Part shown: positions 2,602 to 30,963 of the stretch, in pieces
Layout of the letters: the number at the start of each line of letters is the position of its first letter
Numbering within the stretch: the stretch's first letter is position 1
Translations under genes and position numbers: made by a program
Source of the DNA: Escherichia phage alia
Length of the DNA stretch: 64,000 bases
Sequence record: NC_052655.1
Direction: 5' to 3' (one strand)
Notes under the pieces: model-generated
Told to the model about the DNA's origin: nothing
Seen by the model: the letters and a program-made list of their open reading frames with translations, nothing else
Database searches by the model: none

Positions 2602-3033
2602 TTAGTCAGTGAAAATTACGCTTACATCTTCTTTAGAAAAGAGTTTATGATCTTCACCTTTTGTCTCAAGAGTTTCATACAGGTTAAGAAGTTCTGAAAC
2701 ATCTTTCTCTACCAGTTTCTTCAATGTTGCAATTTTCTGTTTGCGACTCTTAATACGTTCAGCTACAACCTTACGCTGGTATCCGGCAGTACGATAACCT
2801 GAGAAAGTTACACCAGTGAGACTTGCAGTTACAGGATCGTAGTGACGTTCAATCTGAAATTTATTAAAAGGTACAGCGTCATCACGAATAATCTTACCGC
2901 CATTACTTACTTGACGAAGACCAGTAACTTGTTCCAGTCGTGCCATAGAAATCTTTGGAGACAGACCAGAGTCCAGGTTCATACCGTTGTTAATCAGTGC
3001 TTTCAGGGTGATTTTGCTGTTCAGTGTACTCAT
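2602..3033 (-). CDS. hypothetical protein
   Basis: 143-aa ORF with a GGAGG Shine-Dalgarno site upstream of the ATG; no motif recognised. Confidence 0.5.
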   Translation of the reverse strand: MSTLNSKITLKALINNGMNLDSGLSPKISMARLEQVTGLRQVSNGGKIIRDDAVPFNKFQIERHYDPVTASLTGVTFSGYRTAGYQRKVVAERIKSRKQKIATLKKLVEKDVSELLNLYETLETKGEDHKLFSKEDVSVIFTD

Positions 3034-3721
3034 TTAGTCGTTCCTCCGCTTGCTTAAAAATATTTACATCGGCTTCACAGCCTAAGTATTCTCTACCTGT
3101 TAAAAGTGCCGCAACTTGTGTTGTTGCACTTCCAGAGAAGAAGTCTAAGACTACATCTCCTTCGTTGGTGTGTATATTAATAAGGTCACAAAACAAAGTC
3201 AAGTGTTTTTGTGTTGGATGAAAACGATCTGCTCCTTGATAGATAGGATACTCAAACACACCCTTATGGTAGGAAGCATTGAAGGTTGGCTTCGAACCTT
3301 TAACACAAACAATAGCCATCTCTTTAGCGTTACTAAGATAGTTAACACCACTGTTGATGGGTACAGGGTTTGTTTTAATCCATTCGATAGTACGGAACAT
3401 ACGAAAACCAAGTGGTTCAAGGATTTCACGTAGTTCTTGGATCTTCCAGATATCATACCAAACGATGCAAGTACCACCTTTTCTAAGCACCCTGTAGGCT
3501 TCTTTGAATACTTCTTTAAAGTAAGGAATATCTACAACATCCCAATCACCAAAGTTGTAAGATACACGGAATCTATCCGTATCTTTTCCAGTCGGCTCTC
3601 CAGATTGAAAATTTGTGTCACGAGAAATAGCATATGGTGGGTCAGTAAGAATCAAATCTACACTATTGCTTTCGAGGGTTTGCAGGTAGTTTAATGCGGT
3701 GTTGTTTACAAATTCGCTCAT
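2990..3721 (-). CDS. DNA methyltransferase, beta-class (N6-adenine or N4-cytosine)
   Basis: 'TDPPYA' (motif IV) near the N-terminus and 'DFFSGSATT' (FxGxG-like motif I) near the C-terminus give the IV-TRD-I order of beta-class amino-MTases; strong RBS. Confidence 0.8.
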   Translation of the reverse strand: MSEFVNNTALNYLQTLESNSVDLILTDPPYAISRDTNFQSGEPTGKDTDRFRVSYNFGDWDVVDIPYFKEVFKEAYRVLRKGGTCIVWYDIWKIQELREILEPLGFRMFRTIEWIKTNPVPINSGVNYLSNAKEMAIVCVKGSKPTFNASYHKGVFEYPIYQGADRFHPTQKHLTLFCDLINIHTNEGDVVLDFFSGSATTQVAALLTGREYLGCEADVNIFKQAEERLNEYTEQQNHPESTD

Positions 3722-3741
3722 TATATCTCCTTCAAAGAAAA

Positions 3742-3766
3742 GGAGCCGTTAGGCTCCTTATATTCA
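3742..3766 (-). terminator. intrinsic terminator hairpin (GGAGCC-gtta-GGCTCC) downstream of the SSB-like gene
   Basis: Same stem sequence as the hairpin at 2574; T-run follows on the minus strand. Confidence 0.5.
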
Positions 3767-3781
3767 CACAATATTTAACTA

Positions 3782-4729
3782 TTAGAAACAGTGCAGGAAG
3801 TTTCGACCATACTGCAAACCAATAGGAGCAAATGGGATATCATCATCGAAATCTTGAACAACAGGTTCTGGTTCTTTCGGTGCTGGCTCTTTCTTCTCTA
3901 CTTTTTTAGTTTCTTTCTTAACTTCTTGTACCGGGGTAGACATTCCACGGATAGCAGCAGCTACTTTATCAGACAAAGCAAGAACTTCACGAGCAGCTTC
4001 AATAATCTCTTCTGCCGTTACAGTTTTACCTGTATGATCACGACAAGCGTTAAGAATTGCGTGTCCAACTGAAGCACCAAGATCATAGTCAGTCACATCA
4101 ACGCCACGATCTTTAGCAATTTCTGCTTTCAGAGTAACAGTTGCAGATTGTACCACACCAGCCAAGTCGAAAGCATCACCTTTCACACCAGCACGTAGAA
4201 GCTCCAGAGCGCCGTTTACAGCGTGTCCTGTTTCAATCCCTACGGTATCACGTTTTTTGTAGTTAGGCTTGCTACCTTCGTTATTAGATGGCTTATTTCC
4301 ACCTTTTGAAGAAGATTGTGCTTGCTGAACACCTTCTGTTGAAAGAATAGTGATTTTACCTTTAGAGGAATTGTAGTATGTTTTGCCATTCCATTCAGAA
4401 GGTTTAACATCCATAGTTAGTTCTACACCTTTTTCGATAGTAACCCACTTATCACCATCTTTAACTTGCAGGTTTTCATGTTCTGGGTGCAGTTTAACTT
4501 CACCTAGGCTAACCCAAACACCTTTATCATCAGCACCAGCACCTTTCTCTTTAATAAGCAGGGATGCTTTGTGAGTTGATTCAATTTTCTTATCTGGCTG
4601 ACCTGCAACCTTAATATAAGAGACTTTCATTTCATCAAACTTATCCAGTTTGACATATTCAACGATACCTTCAGCCCAGAATGCTTCTTTTTTAGTACGA
4701 CGGTCGATTTCAGAATTAATTACTGGCAT
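3782..4729 (-). CDS. SSB-like protein with acidic 'DFDDDIPF' motif
   Basis: 'QDFDDDIPF' matches the E. coli SSB C-terminal tail, but here it is followed by 15 more residues; the N-terminal region is not obviously an OB fold. Confidence 0.45.
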   Translation of the reverse strand: MPVINSEIDRRTKKEAFWAEGIVEYVKLDKFDEMKVSYIKVAGQPDKKIESTHKASLLIKEKGAGADDKGVWVSLGEVKLHPEHENLQVKDGDKWVTIEKGVELTMDVKPSEWNGKTYYNSSKGKITILSTEGVQQAQSSSKGGNKPSNNEGSKPNYKKRDTVGIETGHAVNGALELLRAGVKGDAFDLAGVVQSATVTLKAEIAKDRGVDVTDYDLGASVGHAILNACRDHTGKTVTAEEIIEAAREVLALSDKVAAAIRGMSTPVQEVKKETKKVEKKEPAPKEPEPVVQDFDDDIPFAPIGLQYGRNFLHCF

Positions 4730-5187: not shown

Positions 5188-5802
5188 TTAAATCTTAAAT
5201 TCTTCGTTGTTAAATGAATCCAGTGTACGTACTTCTGGTTCTTTGGGAATGAAAACGTCTTTTACAAAGCGGAACATAGGGAAACGTTCTGCCATTTTAC
5301 GGACGTGTGCTTCTTTACCTGTGTATCGGTGATTAATAGTGCAAATATTAGTTTTCAATGCAAAGTCAAAATCTGGATGATATACATAATTTTGACCATC
5401 CCAGTAACACAAGCAAATAGCTACATCAAAGTTCCATACGATTTCACTGCGTACACCTTCTTCCATGATCATAAAGTTAAACTTAAGATCTTTATAGTAT
5501 GCTTCAAATACCCATTTCAAATGTGGTAGTTCGGCATAAGTGTGTTCTGTTTGCTTAGTAAGTTGTTTAACATTACGTGCACCAACACCCAACATCAAAA
5601 ATTTCTCTACTAGTACGAGTGTATTGTGGTTAGGCATACGCAAGTAAATGTCAATATCTTGCGCAGGTTTCTCTAATCGCCAGTCACGTACAGCGCCGCC
5701 AGCTACAATTGCAAACGGATCTACCAGTTGGCACATACGTAATACTTCTAAAGCTCGTACTTTTTGATCTTCAATATTCATATTTTCTCCTATCGTGTCC
5801 AC
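5188..5802 (-). CDS. putative Pol-beta-type nucleotidyltransferase (CCA-adding/poly(A) polymerase head-like)
   Basis: 'VAGGAVRDWRL...DIDIY' resembles the GGxVRD...DxD head motif of the tRNA nucleotidyltransferase family; only 204 aa. Confidence 0.4.
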   Translation of the reverse strand: MDTIGENMNIEDQKVRALEVLRMCQLVDPFAIVAGGAVRDWRLEKPAQDIDIYLRMPNHNTLVLVEKFLMLGVGARNVKQLTKQTEHTYAELPHLKWVFEAYYKDLKFNFMIMEEGVRSEIVWNFDVAICLCYWDGQNYVYHPDFDFALKTNICTINHRYTGKEAHVRKMAERFPMFRFVKDVFIPKEPEVRTLDSFNNEEFKI

Positions 5803-6386
5803 TCTTTATGTTGTTCTACATGCTCAAGCATTTCATTATACAGTGCTTTAAGATGTGGAACAACTCTTTCATCTTCAGTTTCAAAGAATTTTGTAAGCTG
5901 TTCTGCCTTAGCTTTCAACCAGCAAAGATGCGCTTCAATTTCAGTATTAAAACGTCCCAGTGTTATAACACGTCCATCACGTTGAATATGGGCTTTATAC
6001 TTTTTACGATCTTTTTCGTAACTACATCCTACCATAGTCCCATGAGATCTTTTACTTACTCTATAAGCTAAGAACTTGTTAAGATCTCCTGTTACTAAAA
6101 GACAGGTATCGGGAGAGTAAACTCTCCCTCCTATAATATCTTTATCAAGTTCTAAGTTTTCCCAGTTATCCCAAGTTTGCAACCAGGAGTAGAAATTGGA
6201 GAACAGTTTCCATTCTTCACAAACCGTCACCCCATTATAACAAGGATCACGTTCTTGTTGACAAGGGGAGTAACACCTCCCCAACATAGCCATCCATTTC
6301 ATATAATGCGGCGTTAGTTTCTTACTACCAGGTAGCGTACTCTCGCCTTCCAAATCATTAATACCTTCACCATATACGGTAAGCAT
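5790..6386 (-). CDS. AP2-domain protein, homing-endonuclease-like
   Basis: 'YKAHIQRDGRVITLGRFNTEIEAHLCW' resembles the AP2 DNA-binding domain common in phage HNH homing endonucleases; sits directly upstream of the DNA polymerase gene. Confidence 0.5.
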   Translation of the reverse strand: MLTVYGEGINDLEGESTLPGSKKLTPHYMKWMAMLGRCYSPCQQERDPCYNGVTVCEEWKLFSNFYSWLQTWDNWENLELDKDIIGGRVYSPDTCLLVTGDLNKFLAYRVSKRSHGTMVGCSYEKDRKKYKAHIQRDGRVITLGRFNTEIEAHLCWLKAKAEQLTKFFETEDERVVPHLKALYNEMLEHVEQHKEWTR

Positions 6387-6413: not shown

Positions 6414-8993
6414 TCAGTGACAAGACGCCCATGAGTTACCAACATCGTAACCAGCAGTGAGAGGTACATTAAGATTGTAATACTCACCAGCTTTATTAAC
6501 AGCGATAGATGCTAATTCTCCAGCACGACTGTAGGCTGTAAACCAACCACCTTTCGGAGATTCATGTACGTTAGCCCAAATCTTGCCAGTACGTTTCTCT
6601 TCCTCTTCTTTCCAGGCATTAACTTTATCCAAACATTCTTTATCAATTTTCTTTTGTTCTTCTGGATCATCAACTTGAGTCCAACCTAAAGATTCTTTAG
6701 AGAACCATTTAAAATGCACTAGATCACGAGTAACTTCAAGCTGTGCTTCATCGTGATATGCAATCATTTGTTGAACGAATGACTTATTTTTCCAGTCATC
6801 AACAAAAAAGTCAACAGCTAATCCTTCTTCTTCGATAAGATCGTCGTAGATAACCATTGCTCTTTTTGCACAAATAACACCACCACTCTGGAACAGAGAG
6901 TTAAGTATTGCGTGTGCAGATCGTGTAGGTACTTTCCTACCATCAATACCAAGAATGTATTTCTTACCTGTTTTAACCCAAAAGTCATGCAGACGTTCTT
7001 TAAGAAGCGCAAGAGGTTTTGCAGCTTCCCAGAAAGCATCGTATACAAGCTGTCCTGTATACATATCACTACCTATAGTTTTTGCTACTTTTGCAGCTTG
7101 AGCACCATAAGTAATACCATACTTAACAGATTTAGCAGGGCTTCGTTCAAACTTACGACCAATAGTGTCAGAAATACGTCGAGCCATCATTGTATGAACA
7201 TCATTAGGTTTTTCCAATAATAGAGCATTACAATATTCGTGTGGTTCCTGCTCGTACCGCCAACAGTAGTGCGATTCTATTTTTGCCTCAAGAGAATCAA
7301 AGTCATAACCAATTTGGAAGTATTTTGGAACTTCTACACCAAATAAGTTACGCATTTCATATCCGTACAGAGATGTTACACGTGGGATATTTGCTACTAA
7401 CCTATGTTTCATACGAGACGTAGCTGCATCACACGTTGCAGCAGGAGTTGGTATACGACCATCAGCCCTTACTGCTGCCAGATAACCTTTATCGTAATCT
7501 TCTTCATCTTCTTCCCAATCAGCACCACCCCCTAGAATAGAGTTCCTACGGTGTTTATACGTAAGATACTGCACAATCTGCGTAGCATAAGGAAACTTTT
7601 CACCTAGTGCTTCCAAGTTAGGACAAATATCTTTCTCTTGCCCTTTTGTAAAGGAAGGGTTAGTAAGCACTTTAACACCACGACCTTTAGCTTTAGCAAT
7701 ACGATCTCTTAGTTTCCATTCCAAAGTTTCTGGTGTGCACTCCAGATGATCACATCTGTCCTGGCAAAAGTTAGATGCTAACGTTTGATCAACATAATCA
7801 CGAATAGCTTTCTCCATTTGTGCTTCATCTTTCTTAATCTTAGTGCCAGATTTAAGAGTGATATCTTTATCTTTATATTCAGATGGACTCCAACCTAAAC
7901 CAACTAACCAGTTTTTAATATGTGTAGTGTCGTCTAAAGTAGCAGGTACTGTAGGATCACAAATAGGTTCTTCTGCTGGAATAGGTAGTTTAAACTCTTT
8001 ACCTAGTGCAAATAACCACCAACCATCTTCTTTTTGTACAAGTTCACCAGAATGTTTCTCTGCAAACTTTATCATGTTACTTGAAGGTTCACCATTCTTT
8101 TTAAACTGTAGTTTAGGTGGAATGAATGATTTCAAATAACCTTTAGTAGCAGGTTTAGGAGGTAGCACAGGTTCTGCCTCTAAACGACATGCTTCCATTC
8201 GAGCATCCAGATCACGAATATTATCTTCTGCTTGTTTCATGTTGAAAGCAAAGCCACGGTGCTCTTGACGTGTAATAATATCAGCTACACGTTGTTCTAA
8301 GTTAAATGGTTCAGACCACTTATTATAATCACCCCACTCTTCCATCAAATAACGGAACACTGCGGTGTTAGCTTTGTTATCGTAAATACAGTAATACAGC
8401 ATATCTGCTGCAAATGTTTTAAATCTTTCAGTTTCAGGAATGTTTTTTCTAAAATCAATTTTAACATCCCCTCCAGCTTTCTTAGATAACTCTGCCAGAC
8501 TATGACCACCGAAGCGATCAGGGTTTAGTGTCTTACTTAAGATCATAGTATCACAAATTTCAATGTTACTATTACCCCAAGTATTGTACTTAATACTGTA
8601 GTTGAGTTTAAAAAATAATTTAATTGCCAGTAAGTCAAAGTTAATGATGTTATGTCCAACTACTTTGGTAATTTTATAGTTTGAATTACCTTTAAATTTA
8701 CCTGTTCCATTTACAAAATCAGGAAAATCTTTAAGAGGGAAATGGGTATATTCTAAATGCTCATATTCCTCCAGTCGGTATTCATACTTTCCGTCAGTCT
8801 CAACATACGGACGACCATCGAAAAGATATTTATCACCATCATGGAAAGCAATAATCTCTCCAGTATCATGACTTTCGCACACAATACAGTGCATTGCAAA
8901 ACTATCTTTTAAACGATATGGACTTGCCAAGTAATCTACACTTTCGTCATTAAGCAAGTTGTTACTTTCAATGTCGAAAGTAAAAGCTCCCAT
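6414..8993 (-). CDS. DNA polymerase, family A, with N-terminal 3'-5' exonuclease
   Basis: 'FDIES' (exo I), 'DFDSLEAKI' (motif A-like), 'KSVKYGITYGAQ' (motif B) and 'YHDEAQ' (motif C); 859 aa; AAGGAGGG RBS. Confidence 0.9.
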   Translation of the reverse strand: MGAFTFDIESNNLLNDESVDYLASPYRLKDSFAMHCIVCESHDTGEIIAFHDGDKYLFDGRPYVETDGKYEYRLEEYEHLEYTHFPLKDFPDFVNGTGKFKGNSNYKITKVVGHNIINFDLLAIKLFFKLNYSIKYNTWGNSNIEICDTMILSKTLNPDRFGGHSLAELSKKAGGDVKIDFRKNIPETERFKTFAADMLYYCIYDNKANTAVFRYLMEEWGDYNKWSEPFNLEQRVADIITRQEHRGFAFNMKQAEDNIRDLDARMEACRLEAEPVLPPKPATKGYLKSFIPPKLQFKKNGEPSSNMIKFAEKHSGELVQKEDGWWLFALGKEFKLPIPAEEPICDPTVPATLDDTTHIKNWLVGLGWSPSEYKDKDITLKSGTKIKKDEAQMEKAIRDYVDQTLASNFCQDRCDHLECTPETLEWKLRDRIAKAKGRGVKVLTNPSFTKGQEKDICPNLEALGEKFPYATQIVQYLTYKHRRNSILGGGADWEEDEEDYDKGYLAAVRADGRIPTPAATCDAATSRMKHRLVANIPRVTSLYGYEMRNLFGVEVPKYFQIGYDFDSLEAKIESHYCWRYEQEPHEYCNALLLEKPNDVHTMMARRISDTIGRKFERSPAKSVKYGITYGAQAAKVAKTIGSDMYTGQLVYDAFWEAAKPLALLKERLHDFWVKTGKKYILGIDGRKVPTRSAHAILNSLFQSGGVICAKRAMVIYDDLIEEEGLAVDFFVDDWKNKSFVQQMIAYHDEAQLEVTRDLVHFKWFSKESLGWTQVDDPEEQKKIDKECLDKVNAWKEEEEKRTGKIWANVHESPKGGWFTAYSRAGELASIAVNKAGEYYNLNVPLTAGYDVGNSWASCH

Positions 8994-9489: not shown

Positions 9490-11262
9490 TTAATAAGAAC
9501 CAGCAGAAATATTTTCTGGGTTACTCGTGTATTGATCGTAATCGTGAAGTGTAGCTGTTTTAATCTCATAGAAGAAACTACCTGCTGCACCAGTCTCTGA
9601 GAACTCACGGTTCTTTAGAATGTAGCAATATGTGCGGTTACGTTCCATAGGATCTTCAGCTTGTTTATCACGCTCCAGCGCAATTGTGATACCAGCACCT
9701 TTAGCAAGGAAGCTACTACCCATTGCATCATCTTCTACAATATGTTCATTACTATTGTTAGAAGACTTTTTAACGTGTGAAATTACAACAATGGTTATTG
9801 CATACTCTTTCATAATGCGTTTGAGCCACGTCGCAAGTTCCTCTTGTTGTGACACGTCCATACCAGAAAGCAAGTCAGAATAAGGGTCGATAACAAGAAT
9901 GGTTACTCCGAAATAAATAATCATTTCCAGAACCTTCTCTTTAATCACATCTACGTTAGCTCCACGATCATCACAAACATAGAAACGTGGTGTTCCATCT
10001 TCTCGTTCGTAAAAATCACGAATCTTTTCTTCATTATCTTTTAAAATCTTTTCCTTCTCTTCTTTTGTTTTACGGTGAAGAGGGATGTGCAAGAATGAAG
10101 ACAGTAAGTTACGAGAATACTTCTTATACGTTGCCTCCAAAGATAAAATACCAAGAGTATGTTCTGGGTGTGCAAGAATAATGTGCTTCGTAATCTCGTT
10201 AACCAACAGTGTCTTACCAATACTTGTTTTTGCAAGTATAACAGTAATTTCTTCTTCTACCAAGCCTCCACCTAACATATTAGAAGCAACACGCATGAAT
10301 GGAGGAAGGGTGATCATTTTAGCTTCCAGGCATTCCAAGGCTGCTTCATACAGTACGTTAGAAGCGTAAACACCAGCAGGTGTGTACAGTTTAGCTTTGA
10401 AAAAGCGATCAATAAAATGATCAATTTTTCCTTCTACTAGTGCCTGGTTAGGATCTTTAACATCCGTTAGTTCCATCACGTAAACTTTATTACGTGGTAA
10501 GATTTTAACACATTTCTCAACTGCTGCACGTCCAGCTTCATCATTATCCATACATAGAACAATCTTTTTAAATTGATCTAAGAATTTATAACGATGTTGA
10601 AGCTGCTTATGCAGAGATGTTTCGCCACAAGTACCAGATACTACAGCAGGAACAGGATATTTACCACCCTTGTTATAATCTTTTAGCATCTGTGTTGCAG
10701 CCAGCATATCGTGTTCACCACCAACGATTAGAATAGTACCGCTGTGGTTACGATATTTAAACTCCCCAAAAAGATCACAATCCTTTCCTGTTTCACCGAT
10801 AGGATGTGAGAAATCTTTTGGATCGATACGTTGTTTATACCCAGCAATATTGTAATCTTTAGTTGTAGGGTATAGTGTTGAAATTACTTCGCCAGTAGCT
10901 TCATCGTACATATAACGTACACCGAAAGGCTTAGAGATATCTTCACGAATACCGCGATAACCTTTTGGATTAGTTCCAGTGCTGGCTTTTAGTTTATCAT
11001 GTACTTCTGGATTAAACTCACTACCCAAGATATCCTCCTCTTCAATTTCTTCGCCGTGTGCATTTAACCATTTTTGATCAGGGATAGTAAAGCCACAAGA
11101 AAAACAATGTGCGCCTCGATGGTCTTCATCGGCATCTAAGCCATATACCATCAAATTGTTTTGTGATCGATCACGCCCTCCTTTCATACAACGAGGACAC
11201 CCAGTATGTCCTTCTTGACTTAGATCAATGTTATACCCATATTTATTTACAACATAAGACAC
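9490..11262 (-). CDS. primase-helicase (T7 gp4-like: zinc ribbon, TOPRIM, DnaB-like helicase)
   Basis: Cys4 element 'CPRCMKGG...CFSCG', TOPRIM-like 'IVLCMDNDEAGRAA', Walker A 'LAKTSIGKT'; 590 aa. Confidence 0.85.
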   Translation of the reverse strand: MSYVVNKYGYNIDLSQEGHTGCPRCMKGGRDRSQNNLMVYGLDADEDHRGAHCFSCGFTIPDQKWLNAHGEEIEEEDILGSEFNPEVHDKLKASTGTNPKGYRGIREDISKPFGVRYMYDEATGEVISTLYPTTKDYNIAGYKQRIDPKDFSHPIGETGKDCDLFGEFKYRNHSGTILIVGGEHDMLAATQMLKDYNKGGKYPVPAVVSGTCGETSLHKQLQHRYKFLDQFKKIVLCMDNDEAGRAAVEKCVKILPRNKVYVMELTDVKDPNQALVEGKIDHFIDRFFKAKLYTPAGVYASNVLYEAALECLEAKMITLPPFMRVASNMLGGGLVEEEITVILAKTSIGKTLLVNEITKHIILAHPEHTLGILSLEATYKKYSRNLLSSFLHIPLHRKTKEEKEKILKDNEEKIRDFYEREDGTPRFYVCDDRGANVDVIKEKVLEMIIYFGVTILVIDPYSDLLSGMDVSQQEELATWLKRIMKEYAITIVVISHVKKSSNNSNEHIVEDDAMGSSFLAKGAGITIALERDKQAEDPMERNRTYCYILKNREFSETGAAGSFFYEIKTATLHDYDQYTSNPENISAGSY

Positions 11263-21495: not shown

Positions 21496-22086
21496 TTAAC
21501 GACGACGTGAGCTACTAAAACTACGTTTCGACGAAGAATAACTTTTCGAAGACTTACTATAAGAGCTAATAGGACTTGAGTAAGACTTACGAGCAGAGTA
21601 ATCACTATTCACTTTTGTTGTTGATGGGCGTGAATACGTTTGTACACTTTGCTGCTTAATTGTGTTTTGTTTAGTGGTTGTATATGTATTTACAGGTTTA
21701 TCATAAAAACTACGCTTTTGTGTTGTATATGATTTACTGTTAGTTGTAGGAGCAGCATTGTTATTAATAATGGTTGTGTTGCTACCACCATCTCTATAAC
21801 CACCACCGCCACTATTACCACTCAACATATGACCAAGAAGCATACCTGTAGCAAAGTCACCTACACCAGAAGAACCACTACCACCTCCTTGCACAACAAC
21901 TGTGGAAGGTTGTGCAGGTGCTGCTTGAACAACTTGAGGTGCAGGTTGATTTACATATTGTTCATCTACCATCTGATTTGGTGTTTGTTGGTAACGTTGA
22001 TTTTGTACATTTTCAGAATCATCACAACCTACCAGCAATGCACTACCTAAAACAACTGCAACAATAAAAGATTTAATGTTTTTCAT
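21496..22086 (-). CDS. putative lipoprotein, low-complexity Gly/Ser/Thr/Tyr-rich
   Basis: 'MKNIKSFIVAVVLGSALLVGC' is a signal peptide with lipobox LVGC; start moved to the internal Met with a GAGAGG RBS. Confidence 0.55.
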   Translation of the reverse strand: MKNIKSFIVAVVLGSALLVGCDDSENVQNQRYQQTPNQMVDEQYVNQPAPQVVQAAPAQPSTVVVQGGGSGSSGVGDFATGMLLGHMLSGNSGGGGYRDGGSNTTIINNNAAPTTNSKSYTTQKRSFYDKPVNTYTTTKQNTIKQQSVQTYSRPSTTKVNSDYSARKSYSSPISSYSKSSKSYSSSKRSFSSSRRR

Positions 22087-22279
22087 TTGTAACCCTCTCA
22101 TTTAAAGTCTCAACACAATTTTTAAAATCCCTAGAGAAACAATACATCTGTTCTCCGTTCCTGTTGATAGTAATTGTATGGTTATCAATATATGTTGTCA
22201 AGATAAAAATCAAACAAAATAACCCTAAAGCAAAACAAATATTTTCAAACAGAATCCAAAGAACACGTAAAACCACCAT
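22073..22279 (-). CDS. hypothetical small membrane protein
   Basis: 68-aa hydrophobic ORF. Confidence 0.35.
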   Translation of the reverse strand: MVVLRVLWILFENICFALGLFCLIFILTTYIDNHTITINRNGEQMYCFSRDFKNCVETLNERVTNEKH

Positions 22280-22289
22280 CAGATCACCT

Positions 22290-29964: not shown

Positions 29965-30012
29965 TAGGGTGGATCTTTATTTTAAATCTTTTTCGTAAGA
30001 TTGTCCTTGATC

Positions 30013-30963
30013 TTAGTCAAGGTTTTTGGTAATACGTGTACAACCGTCAGAAGTCAAACCGTCAACTTGAGTTTCCCAAGTGCCATGAATATTTCGGAAC
30101 AATGTTGTTACACCTTTTGGTTCATTAATAATGATTGCCATAACAAGTTTAGGATCGATAACAGACATAATCTTTTCCTCAATACCCTCTGTAATAACAT
30201 TATTACGCACAATATTAATTACATCTTCTTGTACAGTAAGGGTACTTACGTTCTTAAGAGTATATACCTGCTGCGTAGTGTAAATGATACGAACATAGCT
30301 TACAGAACGAGTAGGCACAGGTTTACGCGGTCGGCGAAAACGTGGTTTTGGTGAAGATTCAGTCTTACTTTCATTTTTTGAATAATACTCCTCAAACAGT
30401 TTAGTAAATGTTTTTACATCAACTACAAACCGATCTTTCCTATATGGAGAATTCTTATGTGCACCATTAATACCACTGTTTTCATCGAAGAAAGTAATGT
30501 TTTCTTCAGTTGAATACATTAGATAATGATCTGCATTTTTCCAATGTGGTTGTGGACAATGAGGATTACAAACGGAAAGCAAATAACTAATATTTTCTTC
30601 CGTGGCCTCAGTATCCAGGAAACACGTATTATGCACAGTCAGTTGTACTTTTTCAGCCATATCTTTTTCTTTATCCTCTTTAGTAAGATATTCAGTACGA
30701 ATAATCTCCAGAAAACCTTCAGGTGTTACTTCCATAAATTTATATTCAGGATGAAGCTCCATATATTCAAACCCACAACCATCTAACTGCTGTAGGAAGT
30801 TAGGGTAGAAGAACAAATCATTAACACTGTGAATCAGATCATTGATTTCTGCTTCAGTTGTGTAACCAAAACTCTTGTGAATTGCTTCGTTAAGAATATG
30901 CAGGATACCCATCTCTTCTGCTGCTTTTTTAACTTCCAGTTTATTAGCGTAAAATGCAATCAT
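30013..30963 (-). CDS. hypothetical protein
   Basis: 316-aa ORF. Confidence 0.5.
   Translation of the reverse strand: MIAFYANKLEVKKAAEEMGILHILNEAIHKSFGYTTEAEINDLIHSVNDLFFYPNFLQQLDGCGFEYMELHPEYKFMEVTPEGFLEIIRTEYLTKEDKEKDMAEKVQLTVHNTCFLDTEATEENISYLLSVCNPHCPQPHWKNADHYLMYSTEENITFFDENSGINGAHKNSPYRKDRFVVDVKTFTKLFEEYYSKNESKTESSPKPRFRRPRKPVPTRSVSYVRIIYTTQQVYTLKNVSTLTVQEDVINIVRNNVITEGIEEKIMSVIDPKLVMAIIINEPKGVTTLFRNIHGTWETQVDGLTSDGCTRITKNLD

What the first reader, a model, noticed from the sequence alone, without database searches (positions are those of the whole stretch)
3782..4729. SSB-like protein whose 'DFDDDIPF' tail is internal, not terminal
The canonical bacterial SSB tail ends with a free C-terminal Phe that partner proteins bind. 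Here the identical motif is followed by 15 extra residues, which would block that binding mode. This could be a sequencing frameshift or premature-stop read-through artefact, or a genuinely different variant.
Basis: seen in the sequence. Interest (0 to 1): 0.4.

Follow-up and report, generated by a model that had tools for sequence, protein, structure and literature searches.

The report
Mobile cap on phage SSB tail
The 15 extra residues after the bacterial-type DDDIPF tail of this phage's DNA-replication protein are real, and they belong to a conserved, horizontally mobile "cap" that in related phages sits fused to a selfish endonuclease gene at the end of SSB genes; what the cap does to the protein is still unknown.

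Summary
In detail: ORF 3782-4729 (-) encodes 315 aa ending ...DFDDDIPF-APIGLQYGRNFLHCF. The window is a phi92-like E. coli myovirus and the gene is Phi92_gp156, an SSB-like protein that closes a T7-style replication operon. A sequencing or read-through artefact is excluded: 54 phage genomes carry the same allele, and distant relatives carry the same motif. The extension is a conserved 14-15-residue module (AP[IV]GL[QP][YFH]...hydrophobic end) that always follows D-I-P-F, nearly always at the extreme C-terminus. It occurs on at least five unrelated SSB scaffolds, in about 158 phage records and about 30 gammaproteobacterial genomes. No searchable paper contains the sequence. Within the phi92/rV5 family it is patchy (at least 9 changes on the tree). 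In six lineages it is fused, in a fixed reading register, to an endonuclease gene (phrog_2340/1035) that lies directly 3' of SSB genes in many unrelated phages. Bas50/Bas54 (cap plus endonuclease) and Bas52 (neither) are near-isogenic. phi92 has the cap without the endonuclease; its last 69 nt are 88-94% identical to endonuclease-bearing alleles, against 68-69% for the whole gene. Origin and mobility are well supported. The protein-level role, most likely a switch in partner specificity, is inferred only.

The parts
3782..4729 (-). Phi92_gp156-type SSB-like gene, 315 aa (phrog_4477)
4340..4729 (-). N-terminal all-beta, OB-like domain (residues 1-130)
   Evidence: AF2 model, pLDDT above 90; top PDB Foldseek matches are OB-fold ssDNA binders but weak, best E = 5e-3
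3950..4243 (-). Four-helix domain (residues 163-260), shared with Bas52_0087; holds D161 (aligns with escape site D252) and A257 (aligns with Y351)
   Evidence: bioRxiv 10.64898/2026.04.29.721553
3854..3949 (-). Disordered K/E/P-rich linker (residues 261-292)
   Evidence: pLDDT about 50; variable columns in alignment A1
3830..3853 (-). Host-type SSB tip DFDDDIPF (residues 293-300), internal in this protein
   Evidence: same tip as E. coli SSB chains in the PDB
3785..3829 (-). 15-residue cap APIGLQYGRNFLHCF (residues 301-315), the conserved mobile extension
   Evidence: mosaic 69-nt patch
3775..3810 (-). Short +1-frame ORF ATG GTC GAA ACT TCC TGC... (MVETSCTVSNS*), matching the first codons of the cassette endonuclease of L046/PsgM04F/536P1 (MVETSCIASKVCFKCG...). 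It is not independent evidence, because it overlaps the conserved cap codons
3740..3759 (-). Intrinsic-terminator-like hairpin 22 nt after the stop codon. Homology with endonuclease-bearing alleles ends exactly at the stop
6414..8993 (-). Context: family-A DNA polymerase in the same operon
9490..11262 (-). Context: T7 gp4-like primase/helicase in the same operon
2602..3721 (-). Context: variable slot downstream of the SSB gene (DNA methyltransferase 2990-3721 and 143-aa ORF 2602-3033). The slot is empty in L001 and holds the endonuclease in relatives

Best explanation
The 15 residues are a genuine, conserved C-terminal cap on the SSB tip. The cap is a short portable module that moves between SSB genes by recombination, probably anchored on the near-invariant tip codons. 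In the phi92/rV5 phage group it is often part of a free-standing endonuclease cassette that lives at the 3' end of SSB genes. SHOWN: the cap exists on at least five unrelated SSB scaffolds, and it is gained or lost repeatedly among close relatives. In six lineages its last 8-29 nt overlap the start of a phrog_2340/1035 endonuclease gene in one fixed register. phi92 carries a cap-only allele whose tip-plus-cap patch is nearly identical to endonuclease-bearing alleles. A deletion intermediate exists in phage 536P1. INFERRED: the endonuclease is a homing endonuclease that recognises the tip/stop junction. Alleles that carry it would then be immune because the junction is altered, either by the cap or by an extra codon in the tip. 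phi92 either lost the endonuclease or received only the cap. INFERRED for the protein: the cap turns the terminal Phe into an internal residue, so canonical docking of the free carboxylate into host SSB-partner pockets should be lost or altered. The conserved AP[IV]GLx[YF] segment plus the hydrophobic end most likely acts as a specificity switch or insulator for the phage SSB. The partner is unknown.
For: The allele is real: 54 genomes. The motif recurs in 20 of 21 extended homologs found through the protein body. A no-extension relative has a clean TTC-TGA-terminator. Scaffolds: phrog_4477; PF00436 SSBs of HK75, Proteus and Vibrio; phrog_743; phrog_7364; the Vibrio 115E34-1 type. An exhaustive HMM search gave 56 cluster representatives, nearly all with the cap at the extreme C-terminus and directly after D[IVL]PF. 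About 158 phage records carry it. Invariant A, P, G and L use all their synonymous codons, with dS about 1.4. Length is 14-15 in 28 of 28 loci, and residue class is conserved at positions that were not ascertained. The tree of 67 family members needs at least 9 state changes. Bas50/Bas54 (423 aa plus endonuclease) against Bas52 (408 aa, neither) is a single indel. Homologous endonucleases overlap the cap in L045, L046, L047, L059, Mangalyan, PsgM04F and ACG-M12 in the register T-AA[AG]-NNN-TGY. Six of six other phages carrying this endonuclease have it directly 3' of an SSB gene. Odd tips DDSDIPF and DDQDIPF predicted an endonuclease downstream in 2 of 3 cases. phi92's last 69 nt are 88-94% identical to L046/PsgM04F, against about 60% for the linker. 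536P1 keeps the cap plus the first 15 endonuclease codons. T4 segG next to gene 32 is a precedent (PMC2988022). The free-carboxylate requirement is from PMC5872125.
Against: No cleavage or homing has been tested. Pfam does not recognise the nuclease, only PHROGs does. Most cap carriers, including HK75, the Proteus and Vibrio phages, KB57, L048, L060, L061 and about 30 bacterial loci, have no endonuclease nearby, so the cassette cannot be the whole story. Skarpretter has the endonuclease with a canonical tip and no cap. On unascertained cap codons dN/dS is 0.7-1.0, noisy and saturated, so strong purifying selection is shown only for the ascertained N-terminal half. AF2 gives no structure or docking for the cap. 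DRT10 restricts Stephanstirmvirinae too, which does not favour simple immune evasion by the cap. No partner was identified.
Confidence: 0.55

Rival explanations
1. Sequencing error, frameshift or stop-codon read-through artefact: the true protein ends at DDDIPF.
For: Most family members (78 of 100) do end at the tip P-F.
Against: The identical allele is present in 54 independently sequenced phages. The same motif occurs in distant homologs and on other scaffolds. Extension-less alleles have no in-frame remnant after the stop. No stop lies immediately after Phe in either alternative frame.
Confidence: 0.01
2. Removable propeptide: the cap is clipped by a host or phage protease after Phe300, regenerating a normal SSB tip. 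The conserved F|AP.GL junction would be the processing site.
For: DDDIPF stays as conserved in capped as in uncapped proteins (dN/dS 0.03). Conservation is centred on the junction. The C-terminal end is hydrophobic and degron-like. phi92 encodes an HslV-like peptidase.
Against: No known protease site matches. There is no evidence of processing. Proline at P2' is unfavourable for many proteases (own knowledge). Carriers span virulent phages, prophages and marine hosts that share no phage-encoded protease.
Confidence: 0.12
3. Tolerated scar: the cap matters only at the DNA level, giving target-site immunity and providing the RBS, start codon and translational coupling for the endonuclease. As a peptide it is neutral.
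For: Fixed-register overlap with the endonuclease start. Cap and endonuclease form one indel. dN/dS is about 1 on the last six codons. The alternative immunity solution by codon insertion in the tip.
Against: AP[IV]GL and the 14-15 aa length persist at saturated synonymous divergence, and in about 30 bacterial loci and several phages with no endonuclease. A neutral tail should drift in length and sequence. An arbitrary addition after the tip Phe would be expected to be harmful, not neutral (PMC5872125).
Confidence: 0.2
4. The cap is the docking peptide for the neighbouring endonuclease protein, recruiting it to SSB-coated ssDNA.
For: Physical linkage of the two genes in six lineages.
Against: A complete phi92-like genome has no homolog of six cassette endonucleases. 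Many cap carriers lack the endonuclease, and many endonuclease carriers lack the cap.
Confidence: 0.03
5. The endonuclease is not selfish but an ordinary member of an annealase-SSB-nuclease recombination module. Its link to the cap is incidental, and the cap spreads by ordinary mosaic recombination.
For: Erf - SSB - endonuclease gene order in ACG-M12, Vibrio K1, Skarpretter and mEp021.
Against: Presence/absence polymorphism between phages that are 97-98% identical at the locus. Truncated and deleted copies. It also occurs in virulent phages with no Erf next to the SSB gene. The BASEL authors annotate it as a putative homing endonuclease.
Confidence: 0.1

Closest known systems
E. coli SSB C-terminal tip (SSB-Ct, ...PPMDFDDDIPF) and its partner pockets (ExoI, RecQ, PriA, chi, DnaG, RecO)
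   Same: Identical DFDDDIPF sequence preceded by a disordered linker. Many family members even share EPPMDFDDDIPF.
   Different: Here the Phe is internal. The salt bridge to the terminal carboxylate described for these pockets (PMC5872125) cannot form. The DNA-binding body is not PF00436.
Bas52_0087 (phage RudolfGeigy), the SSB-like trigger of the DRT10 reverse-transcriptase defence (bioRxiv 10.64898/2026.04.29.721553)
   Same: Homologous four-helix domain and first beta domain (E = 2e-15 and 3e-14). Escape site D252 aligns with the near-invariant D161. Same tip.
   Different: Bas52_0087 is 408 aa, has an extra inserted domain and ends at a free IPF. phi92 gp156 is capped. The paper does not mention capped alleles, although Bas50 and Bas54 of the same collection have them.
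T4 segG, a free-standing homing endonuclease inserted next to gene 32 (the SSB gene) and targeting gene 32 (PMC2988022, Table 1)
   Same: A promoter-less endonuclease ORF parked directly beside the phage SSB gene, polymorphic among relatives, with co-conversion of flanking SSB sequence.
   Different: SegG is GIY-YIG and cuts hundreds of bp from its insertion site. The family here is phrog_2340/1035 (HNH / endonuclease VII-like), sits 3' of the SSB gene, overlaps its end, occurs on many unrelated SSB scaffolds, and is associated with a conserved peptide extension of the SSB.
T7 gp2.5 with the gp4/gp5 replisome
   Same: Same operon logic (primase-helicase, family-A polymerase, acidic-tailed ssDNA-binding protein). 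In T7 the C-terminal Phe is needed for polymerase interaction (cited in bioRxiv 10.64898/2026.02.22.705581).
   Different: No sequence or fold match to gp2.5 was obtained. The tail is host-SSB-like and capped.

Membership tests
Bacterial SSB family (Pfam PF00436) | PF00436 OB-fold domain detectable by profile | tested here: not met
   No Pfam hit at E <= 1. By contrast, HK75, Proteus and Vibrio cap carriers hit PF00436 at 1e-19 to 1e-41.
Bacterial SSB family (Pfam PF00436) | Acidic C-terminal tip D-D-D-I-P-F after a disordered linker | tested here: met
   Residues 293-300 are DFDDDIPF and the linker has pLDDT about 50.
Bacterial SSB family (Pfam PF00436) | The tip Phe is the last residue, with a free alpha-carboxylate | tested here: not met
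   15 residues follow.
Bacterial SSB family (Pfam PF00436) | ssDNA binding and homotetramer formation | not testable with these tools
   Needs biochemistry.
phrog_4477 / Bas52_0087-type phage SSB-like proteins | Profile match and shared beta domain plus four-helix domain | tested here: met
   phrog_4477 at E = 2e-101. BLASTP to Bas52_0087 at 2e-15 and 3e-14. Alignment A1.
phrog_4477 / Bas52_0087-type phage SSB-like proteins | OB fold | tested here: inconclusive
   The model is confident, but the best PDB match has E = 5e-3. All top hits are OB-fold ssDNA binders, with probability up to 0.96 for RPA32.
Free-standing homing-endonuclease cassette (T4 seg/mob type) | Endonuclease ORF in an inter-genic slot, present or absent among near-identical genomes | tested here: met
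   Met in relatives: Bas50/Bas54 against Bas52/55/56. In the window itself the endonuclease is absent.
Free-standing homing-endonuclease cassette (T4 seg/mob type) | Recognisable nuclease domain | tested here: inconclusive
   PHROGs: phrog_2340 'endonuclease' at 1e-39 to 1e-49 and phrog_1035 'endonuclease VII' at 7e-41. Pfam: no hit. The HHxDYDKPLxVxWLCxxHHxxWH motif was seen by eye.
Free-standing homing-endonuclease cassette (T4 seg/mob type) | Co-conversion tract of flanking host-gene sequence | tested here: met
   phi92's last 69 nt are 88-94% identical to endonuclease-bearing alleles, against about 60% for the adjacent linker and 68-69% for the gene.
Free-standing homing-endonuclease cassette (T4 seg/mob type) | Site-specific cleavage of the endonuclease-less allele and biased inheritance | not testable with these tools
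   Needs enzyme assays and co-infection crosses.
T7 gp2.5-type SSB | Sequence or fold homology to gp2.5 | tested here: not met
   No gp2.5 among Pfam, PHROG or Foldseek hits. Only the operon context is similar.

The most novel reading that the evidence does not exclude
The cap is a dedicated specificity switch. By internalising the tip Phe and adding AP[IV]GLx[YF] plus a hydrophobic end, it would uncouple mobile-element SSBs from the host SSB interactome (ExoI/SbcB, RecQ, PriA and others), or redirect them to one conserved host factor. This would change how SSB-sensing or ExoI-linked defences such as DRT10 see the phage. In addition, an endonuclease family would have specialised on the universally conserved SSB-tip codons as a homing site, which lets it jump between unrelated SSB folds and carry the cap with it.
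Probability: 0.2. Interest if true: 0.8.

Novelty: new variant of a known kind. Interest (0 to 1): 0.62.

Why it matters
The free C-terminal Phe of the SSB tip is treated as the universal handle by which more than a dozen genome-maintenance proteins dock on SSB. It is also now implicated in how defence systems sense phage SSBs. A conserved, widely distributed natural cap on that handle appears not to have been described, and it shows that mobile elements routinely make SSBs that cannot use the handle in the textbook way. The link to an endonuclease that sits at SSB 3' ends across unrelated scaffolds suggests that the tip codons serve as a shared landing pad for a selfish element. That would explain mosaicism at SSB genes. 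The BASEL collection already holds near-isogenic capped and uncapped phages (Bas50/54 against Bas52/55/56), so the effect of the cap on DRT10 triggering and on ExoI binding can be tested directly.

Tried and rejected
(1) Artefact or read-through: rejected. (2) A consistently adjacent partner gene: none found; the neighbours differ (Abc2, RecT/Erf, metallophosphatase, methyltransferases). (3) Pfam on gp156, P0100 and the endonucleases: no useful hits. (4) PDB sequence search with the tail: only canonical SSB tips, no capped chain. (5) Literature search for the junction sequence in six variants: zero papers. The HK620 Sak4/SSB paper was irrelevant, since its SSB ends in a terminal NDYPPF. (7) Cap as a docking site for the cassette endonuclease: rejected for phi92. 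(8) The window's own HNH gene (5790-6386) as the cassette endonuclease: rejected, it is an unrelated family. (9) Published per-phage phenotypes separating capped from uncapped BASEL phages: none in the text. (10) Resemblances recalled from memory (beta-clamp motif QL[SD]LF, PIP box, SulA sul20 Lon degron, MuA/ssrA ClpX tags, FtsZ C-terminal peptide) do not fit the conserved positions across variants and were not pursued. (11) dN/dS on the unascertained cap codons was uninformative because the segments are tiny and saturated.

Full report
OBSERVATION. ORF 3782-4729 on the minus strand encodes 315 aa ending ...VVQDFDDDIPF-APIGLQYGRNFLHCF, followed by TAA TAG. The tip DFDDDIPF is residues 293-300 (nt 3830-3853), and the 15-residue extension is nt 3785-3829. 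It is the only such motif inside a long ORF in the window and in a whole phi92-like genome. The finding is confirmed as described.

WHAT THE GENE IS. The window is a phi92-like E. coli myovirus (Justusliebigvirus, Stephanstirmvirinae) and the gene is Phi92_gp156. The 1.3-kb region is at least 95% identical in 54 phage records. Pfam finds nothing. PHROGs places the protein in phrog_4477, 'unknown function'. An AlphaFold2 model built on a 53-sequence alignment (mean pLDDT 83) has an all-beta domain (residues 1-130), a four-helix domain (163-260) and a disordered tail. The extension does not dock on either domain. The best PDB matches are all OB-fold ssDNA binders (STN1, RPA32, MCM N-terminal domain, Cdc13, lactococcal phage p2 SSB), but none is significant: the best E-value is 5e-3, with probability up to 0.96. 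BFVD returns only uncharacterised phage proteins. The gene closes a minus-strand operon of gp4-like primase/helicase (9490-11262), family-A polymerase (6414-8993), an HNH gene, a nucleotidyltransferase and a 132-aa ORF. A terminator follows at 3759-3740. A 2026 preprint identifies the Vequintavirus homolog Bas52_0087 as an SSB-like protein with an FDDDIPF 'C-tip' that is required to trigger the DRT10 defence, with host ExoI/SbcB as antagonist. Bas52_0087 aligns with gp156 over both shared domains, and its escape site D252 corresponds to the near-invariant D161. 'SSB-like' is therefore well supported by context and homology, although it is not a PF00436 SSB.

NOT AN ARTEFACT. There were 100 homologs found through the protein body. 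Of these, 78 end exactly at the tip P-F, one has a single extra residue, and 21 continue. Twenty of those 21 share A/S-P-[IVL]-G-L-x-Y followed by a hydrophobic end. A close relative without the extension (L001, 80% identical) reads CCG TTC TGA and then runs straight into a terminator, with no in-frame remnant.

A WIDESPREAD MODULE.
- A profile built from the tails found the same tip-plus-extension on Q/G-rich bacterial-type SSB fragments from E. coli, Salmonella, Proteus, Providencia, Klebsiella and Tatumella.
- A degenerate DNA scan of one genome per species found about 30 true loci in Enterobacterales, Alteromonadales, Vibrio and Oceanisphaera. All of them have 14-15 residues after IPF.
- The carriers are PF00436 SSBs, phrog_743 SSBs, phrog_7364 SSBs, the phi92 type and a Vibrio-phage OB protein, which makes at least five scaffolds.
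- tblastn finds about 158 phage records with the tail and extension, including lambdoid HK75.
- An exhaustive HMM search of 1.84 billion representatives gave 56 hits on proteins of 25-480 aa with many unrelated N-termini. Apart from a few plain tips that end at IPF and one off-motif, non-terminal match, the module ends at or within one residue of the C-terminus, and it always directly follows D[IVL]PF.
- No paper in the searchable library contains the junction sequence, and no PDB chain has it.

SELECTION. The invariant Ala, Pro, Gly and Leu use all of their synonymous codons. Synonymous sites are saturated (dS about 1.4). dN/dS is 0.03 for the tip and 0.16 for the first eight cap codons. There is a caveat: five of those eight positions were fixed by the scan pattern. 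On unascertained codons dN/dS is 0.7-1.0, but these segments are tiny and saturated. There, residue class and length are conserved: Pro at +8 in 22 of 28, aromatic or His at +7 in 23 of 28, Ile/Leu at -4 in 25 of 28, hydrophobic at -1 in 25 of 28, and length 14-15 in 28 of 28. The unbiased set also supports conservation of the N-terminal half.

MOBILITY AND THE ENDONUCLEASE LINK.
- On a tree built from the folded core of 67 family members, the ten extension-bearing tips are scattered singly. This needs at least 9 changes, with the root inferred to lack the extension.
- In the BASEL collection, Bas52, Bas55 and Bas56 alleles end at IPF (408 aa). The near-identical Bas50 and Bas54 alleles are 423 aa (+APVGLQYGKSRIHAL) and are followed by a 207-aa 'putative homing endonuclease' whose ATG lies inside the extension. 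The two features form a single indel.
- Homologous endonucleases overlap the extension by 8-29 nt in L045, L046 (identical to Mt1B1_P17), L047, L059 (truncated), Mangalyan, PsgM04F and siphovirus ACG-M12. These are phrog_2340 and phrog_1035 members that share a Cys-rich N-terminal domain and, in the phrog_2340 type, an HNH-like C-terminus. The SSB stop codon is always embedded in T-AA[AG]-NNN-TGY, two codons before the first Cys.
- The family has 360 phage records. In six of six further diverse phages it lies directly 3' of an SSB gene, there without the extension.
- Those extension-less carriers mostly have unusual tips (DDSDIPF, DWDEDIPF, DCDQDIPF), and in Vibrio D80 the tip is interrupted by a 9-nt insertion carrying a stop codon. 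Skarpretter is canonical.
- I tested this pattern as a prediction. Phi92-family members with DDSDIPF and DDQDIPF tips do have the endonuclease starting at the stop codon (TGATG). One with DDCDIPF does not.
- This pattern is what is expected if the enzyme recognises the tip/stop junction and its own allele must differ there. That step is an inference.
- T4 segG, a free-standing endonuclease at the 32/59 junction that targets gene 32, is a documented precedent (PMC2988022).

THE phi92 ALLELE. Homology with the endonuclease-bearing alleles runs through the tip and extension and stops exactly at the stop codon. The last 69 nt are 61/69 identical to L046 and 65/69 to PsgM04F. The linker is only about 60% identical and the whole gene 68-69%. 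Phapecoctavirus 536P1 has the same extension followed by the first 15 endonuclease codons and then a deletion joined to a terminator, which makes it an intermediate. No cassette endonuclease exists in the window or in a complete phi92-like genome. phi92 therefore has a cap-only allele that shares recent ancestry with the cassette. Cap-only alleles are also the rule in KB57, L048, L060, L061, HK75, the Proteus and Vibrio phages and the bacterial loci. The cap therefore persists without the endonuclease.

HOW IT MOST LIKELY WORKS. The following is shown: the cap is a real, conserved, portable module with repeated horizontal acquisition, and it is physically fused to an SSB-3'-end endonuclease in several lineages. 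The following is inferred: homing at the tip codons, with the cap (or an extra tip codon) giving target-site immunity. For the protein, the reasoning is as follows. [quoted passage not shown] The capped tip should therefore lose or change that docking. The conserved junction-centred motif and the hydrophobic end suggest a new or modified docking peptide, which I read as a specificity switch or insulator. The rivals are a removable propeptide, a tolerated scar, and an ordinary recombination-module nuclease. No partner was found, and no consistently adjacent gene exists. DRT10 also restricts Stephanstirmvirinae. No published per-phage data separate capped from uncapped BASEL phages.

VERDICT. 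The feature is a previously undescribed conserved cap on SSB tips, tied to a free-standing endonuclease cassette: a new variant of known kinds (SSB-Ct tails, and segG-like elements beside SSB genes). Its origin and mobility are well supported, and its biochemical role is open and directly testable.

Noticed in passing
L056 (Vibrio phage D80, OZ196245.1) about 800-830; same layout in many D-series records: The SSB tip-coding sequence is interrupted: ...DFDDD-RS*-DIPF*. This is a 9-nt insertion (CGGTCTTAG) carrying a stop codon inside the tip, with the endonuclease 84 nt downstream. It may be a target-site immunity mutation that sacrifices the tip.
   Followed up: partly
L007 (Rheinheimera MAG) 5191-5775 and 6156-6323: Two copies of tip plus extension lie 550 nt apart, each followed by a similar 129-aa ORF. 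This looks like a tandem duplication of the tail and its neighbour.
   Followed up: no
phage records MG0656xx: Records named 'Campylobacter phage' are 97-99% identical to E. coli phi92-like and rV5-like phages at this locus, so the host labels look doubtful.
   Followed up: no
window 2602-3721 (-): The slot between the SSB gene and the convergent tail gene (56-2566, +) is variable. phi92 has a DNA methyltransferase and a 143-aa ORF. L001 has nothing there. L047 has the endonuclease plus a 139-aa homolog (38% identity) of the 143-aa ORF.
   Followed up: partly
window 5790-6386 (-): An HNH endonuclease gene (phrog_953) sits between the DNA polymerase and the nucleotidyltransferase and overlaps the latter's start by 13 nt. 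It is unrelated to the SSB-end endonuclease and is also present in L046.
   Followed up: partly
L065 (phi92 NC_023693.1) 21628-22281 and 29975-30631: phi92 encodes an HslV-like peptidase (gp058) and an HNH endonuclease between nrdA and nrdB (gp074), the same position as T4 mobE. The peptidase is a conceivable processing enzyme for the cap, but this was not tested.
   Followed up: no
P0066 (Salmonella phage SalP219); H49 (Klebsiella phage vB_Kpn_K45PH128C2): Members of this SSB-like family are annotated as 'Tail fiber protein' and 'ribonucleoside diphosphate reductase small subunit', which are probably misannotations.
   Followed up: no
L048 about 3734-3755; L045 about 3455-3475; L001 3898-3920: The DNA just after the stop of cap-only alleles (TAAGATGTGATTTAAA) resembles two other sequences: the first 16 nt after the stop in an endonuclease-bearing allele (TAAGATTTGTTTTAAA), and the post-stop DNA of a cap-less allele (TGATGTGATTGATTTATAAA). 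This could mark the insertion or recognition site, but it was not tested statistically.
   Followed up: no
L040 (Bas56 AlexBoehm) 2700-2727; L041 (Bas50): The tip variant DFCDDIPF (Cys in place of Asp) is shared by the endonuclease-bearing Bas50, Bas54 and Mangalyan and by the endonuclease-less, cap-less Bas56. It may be a leftover of co-conversion or a resistant allele.
   Followed up: no
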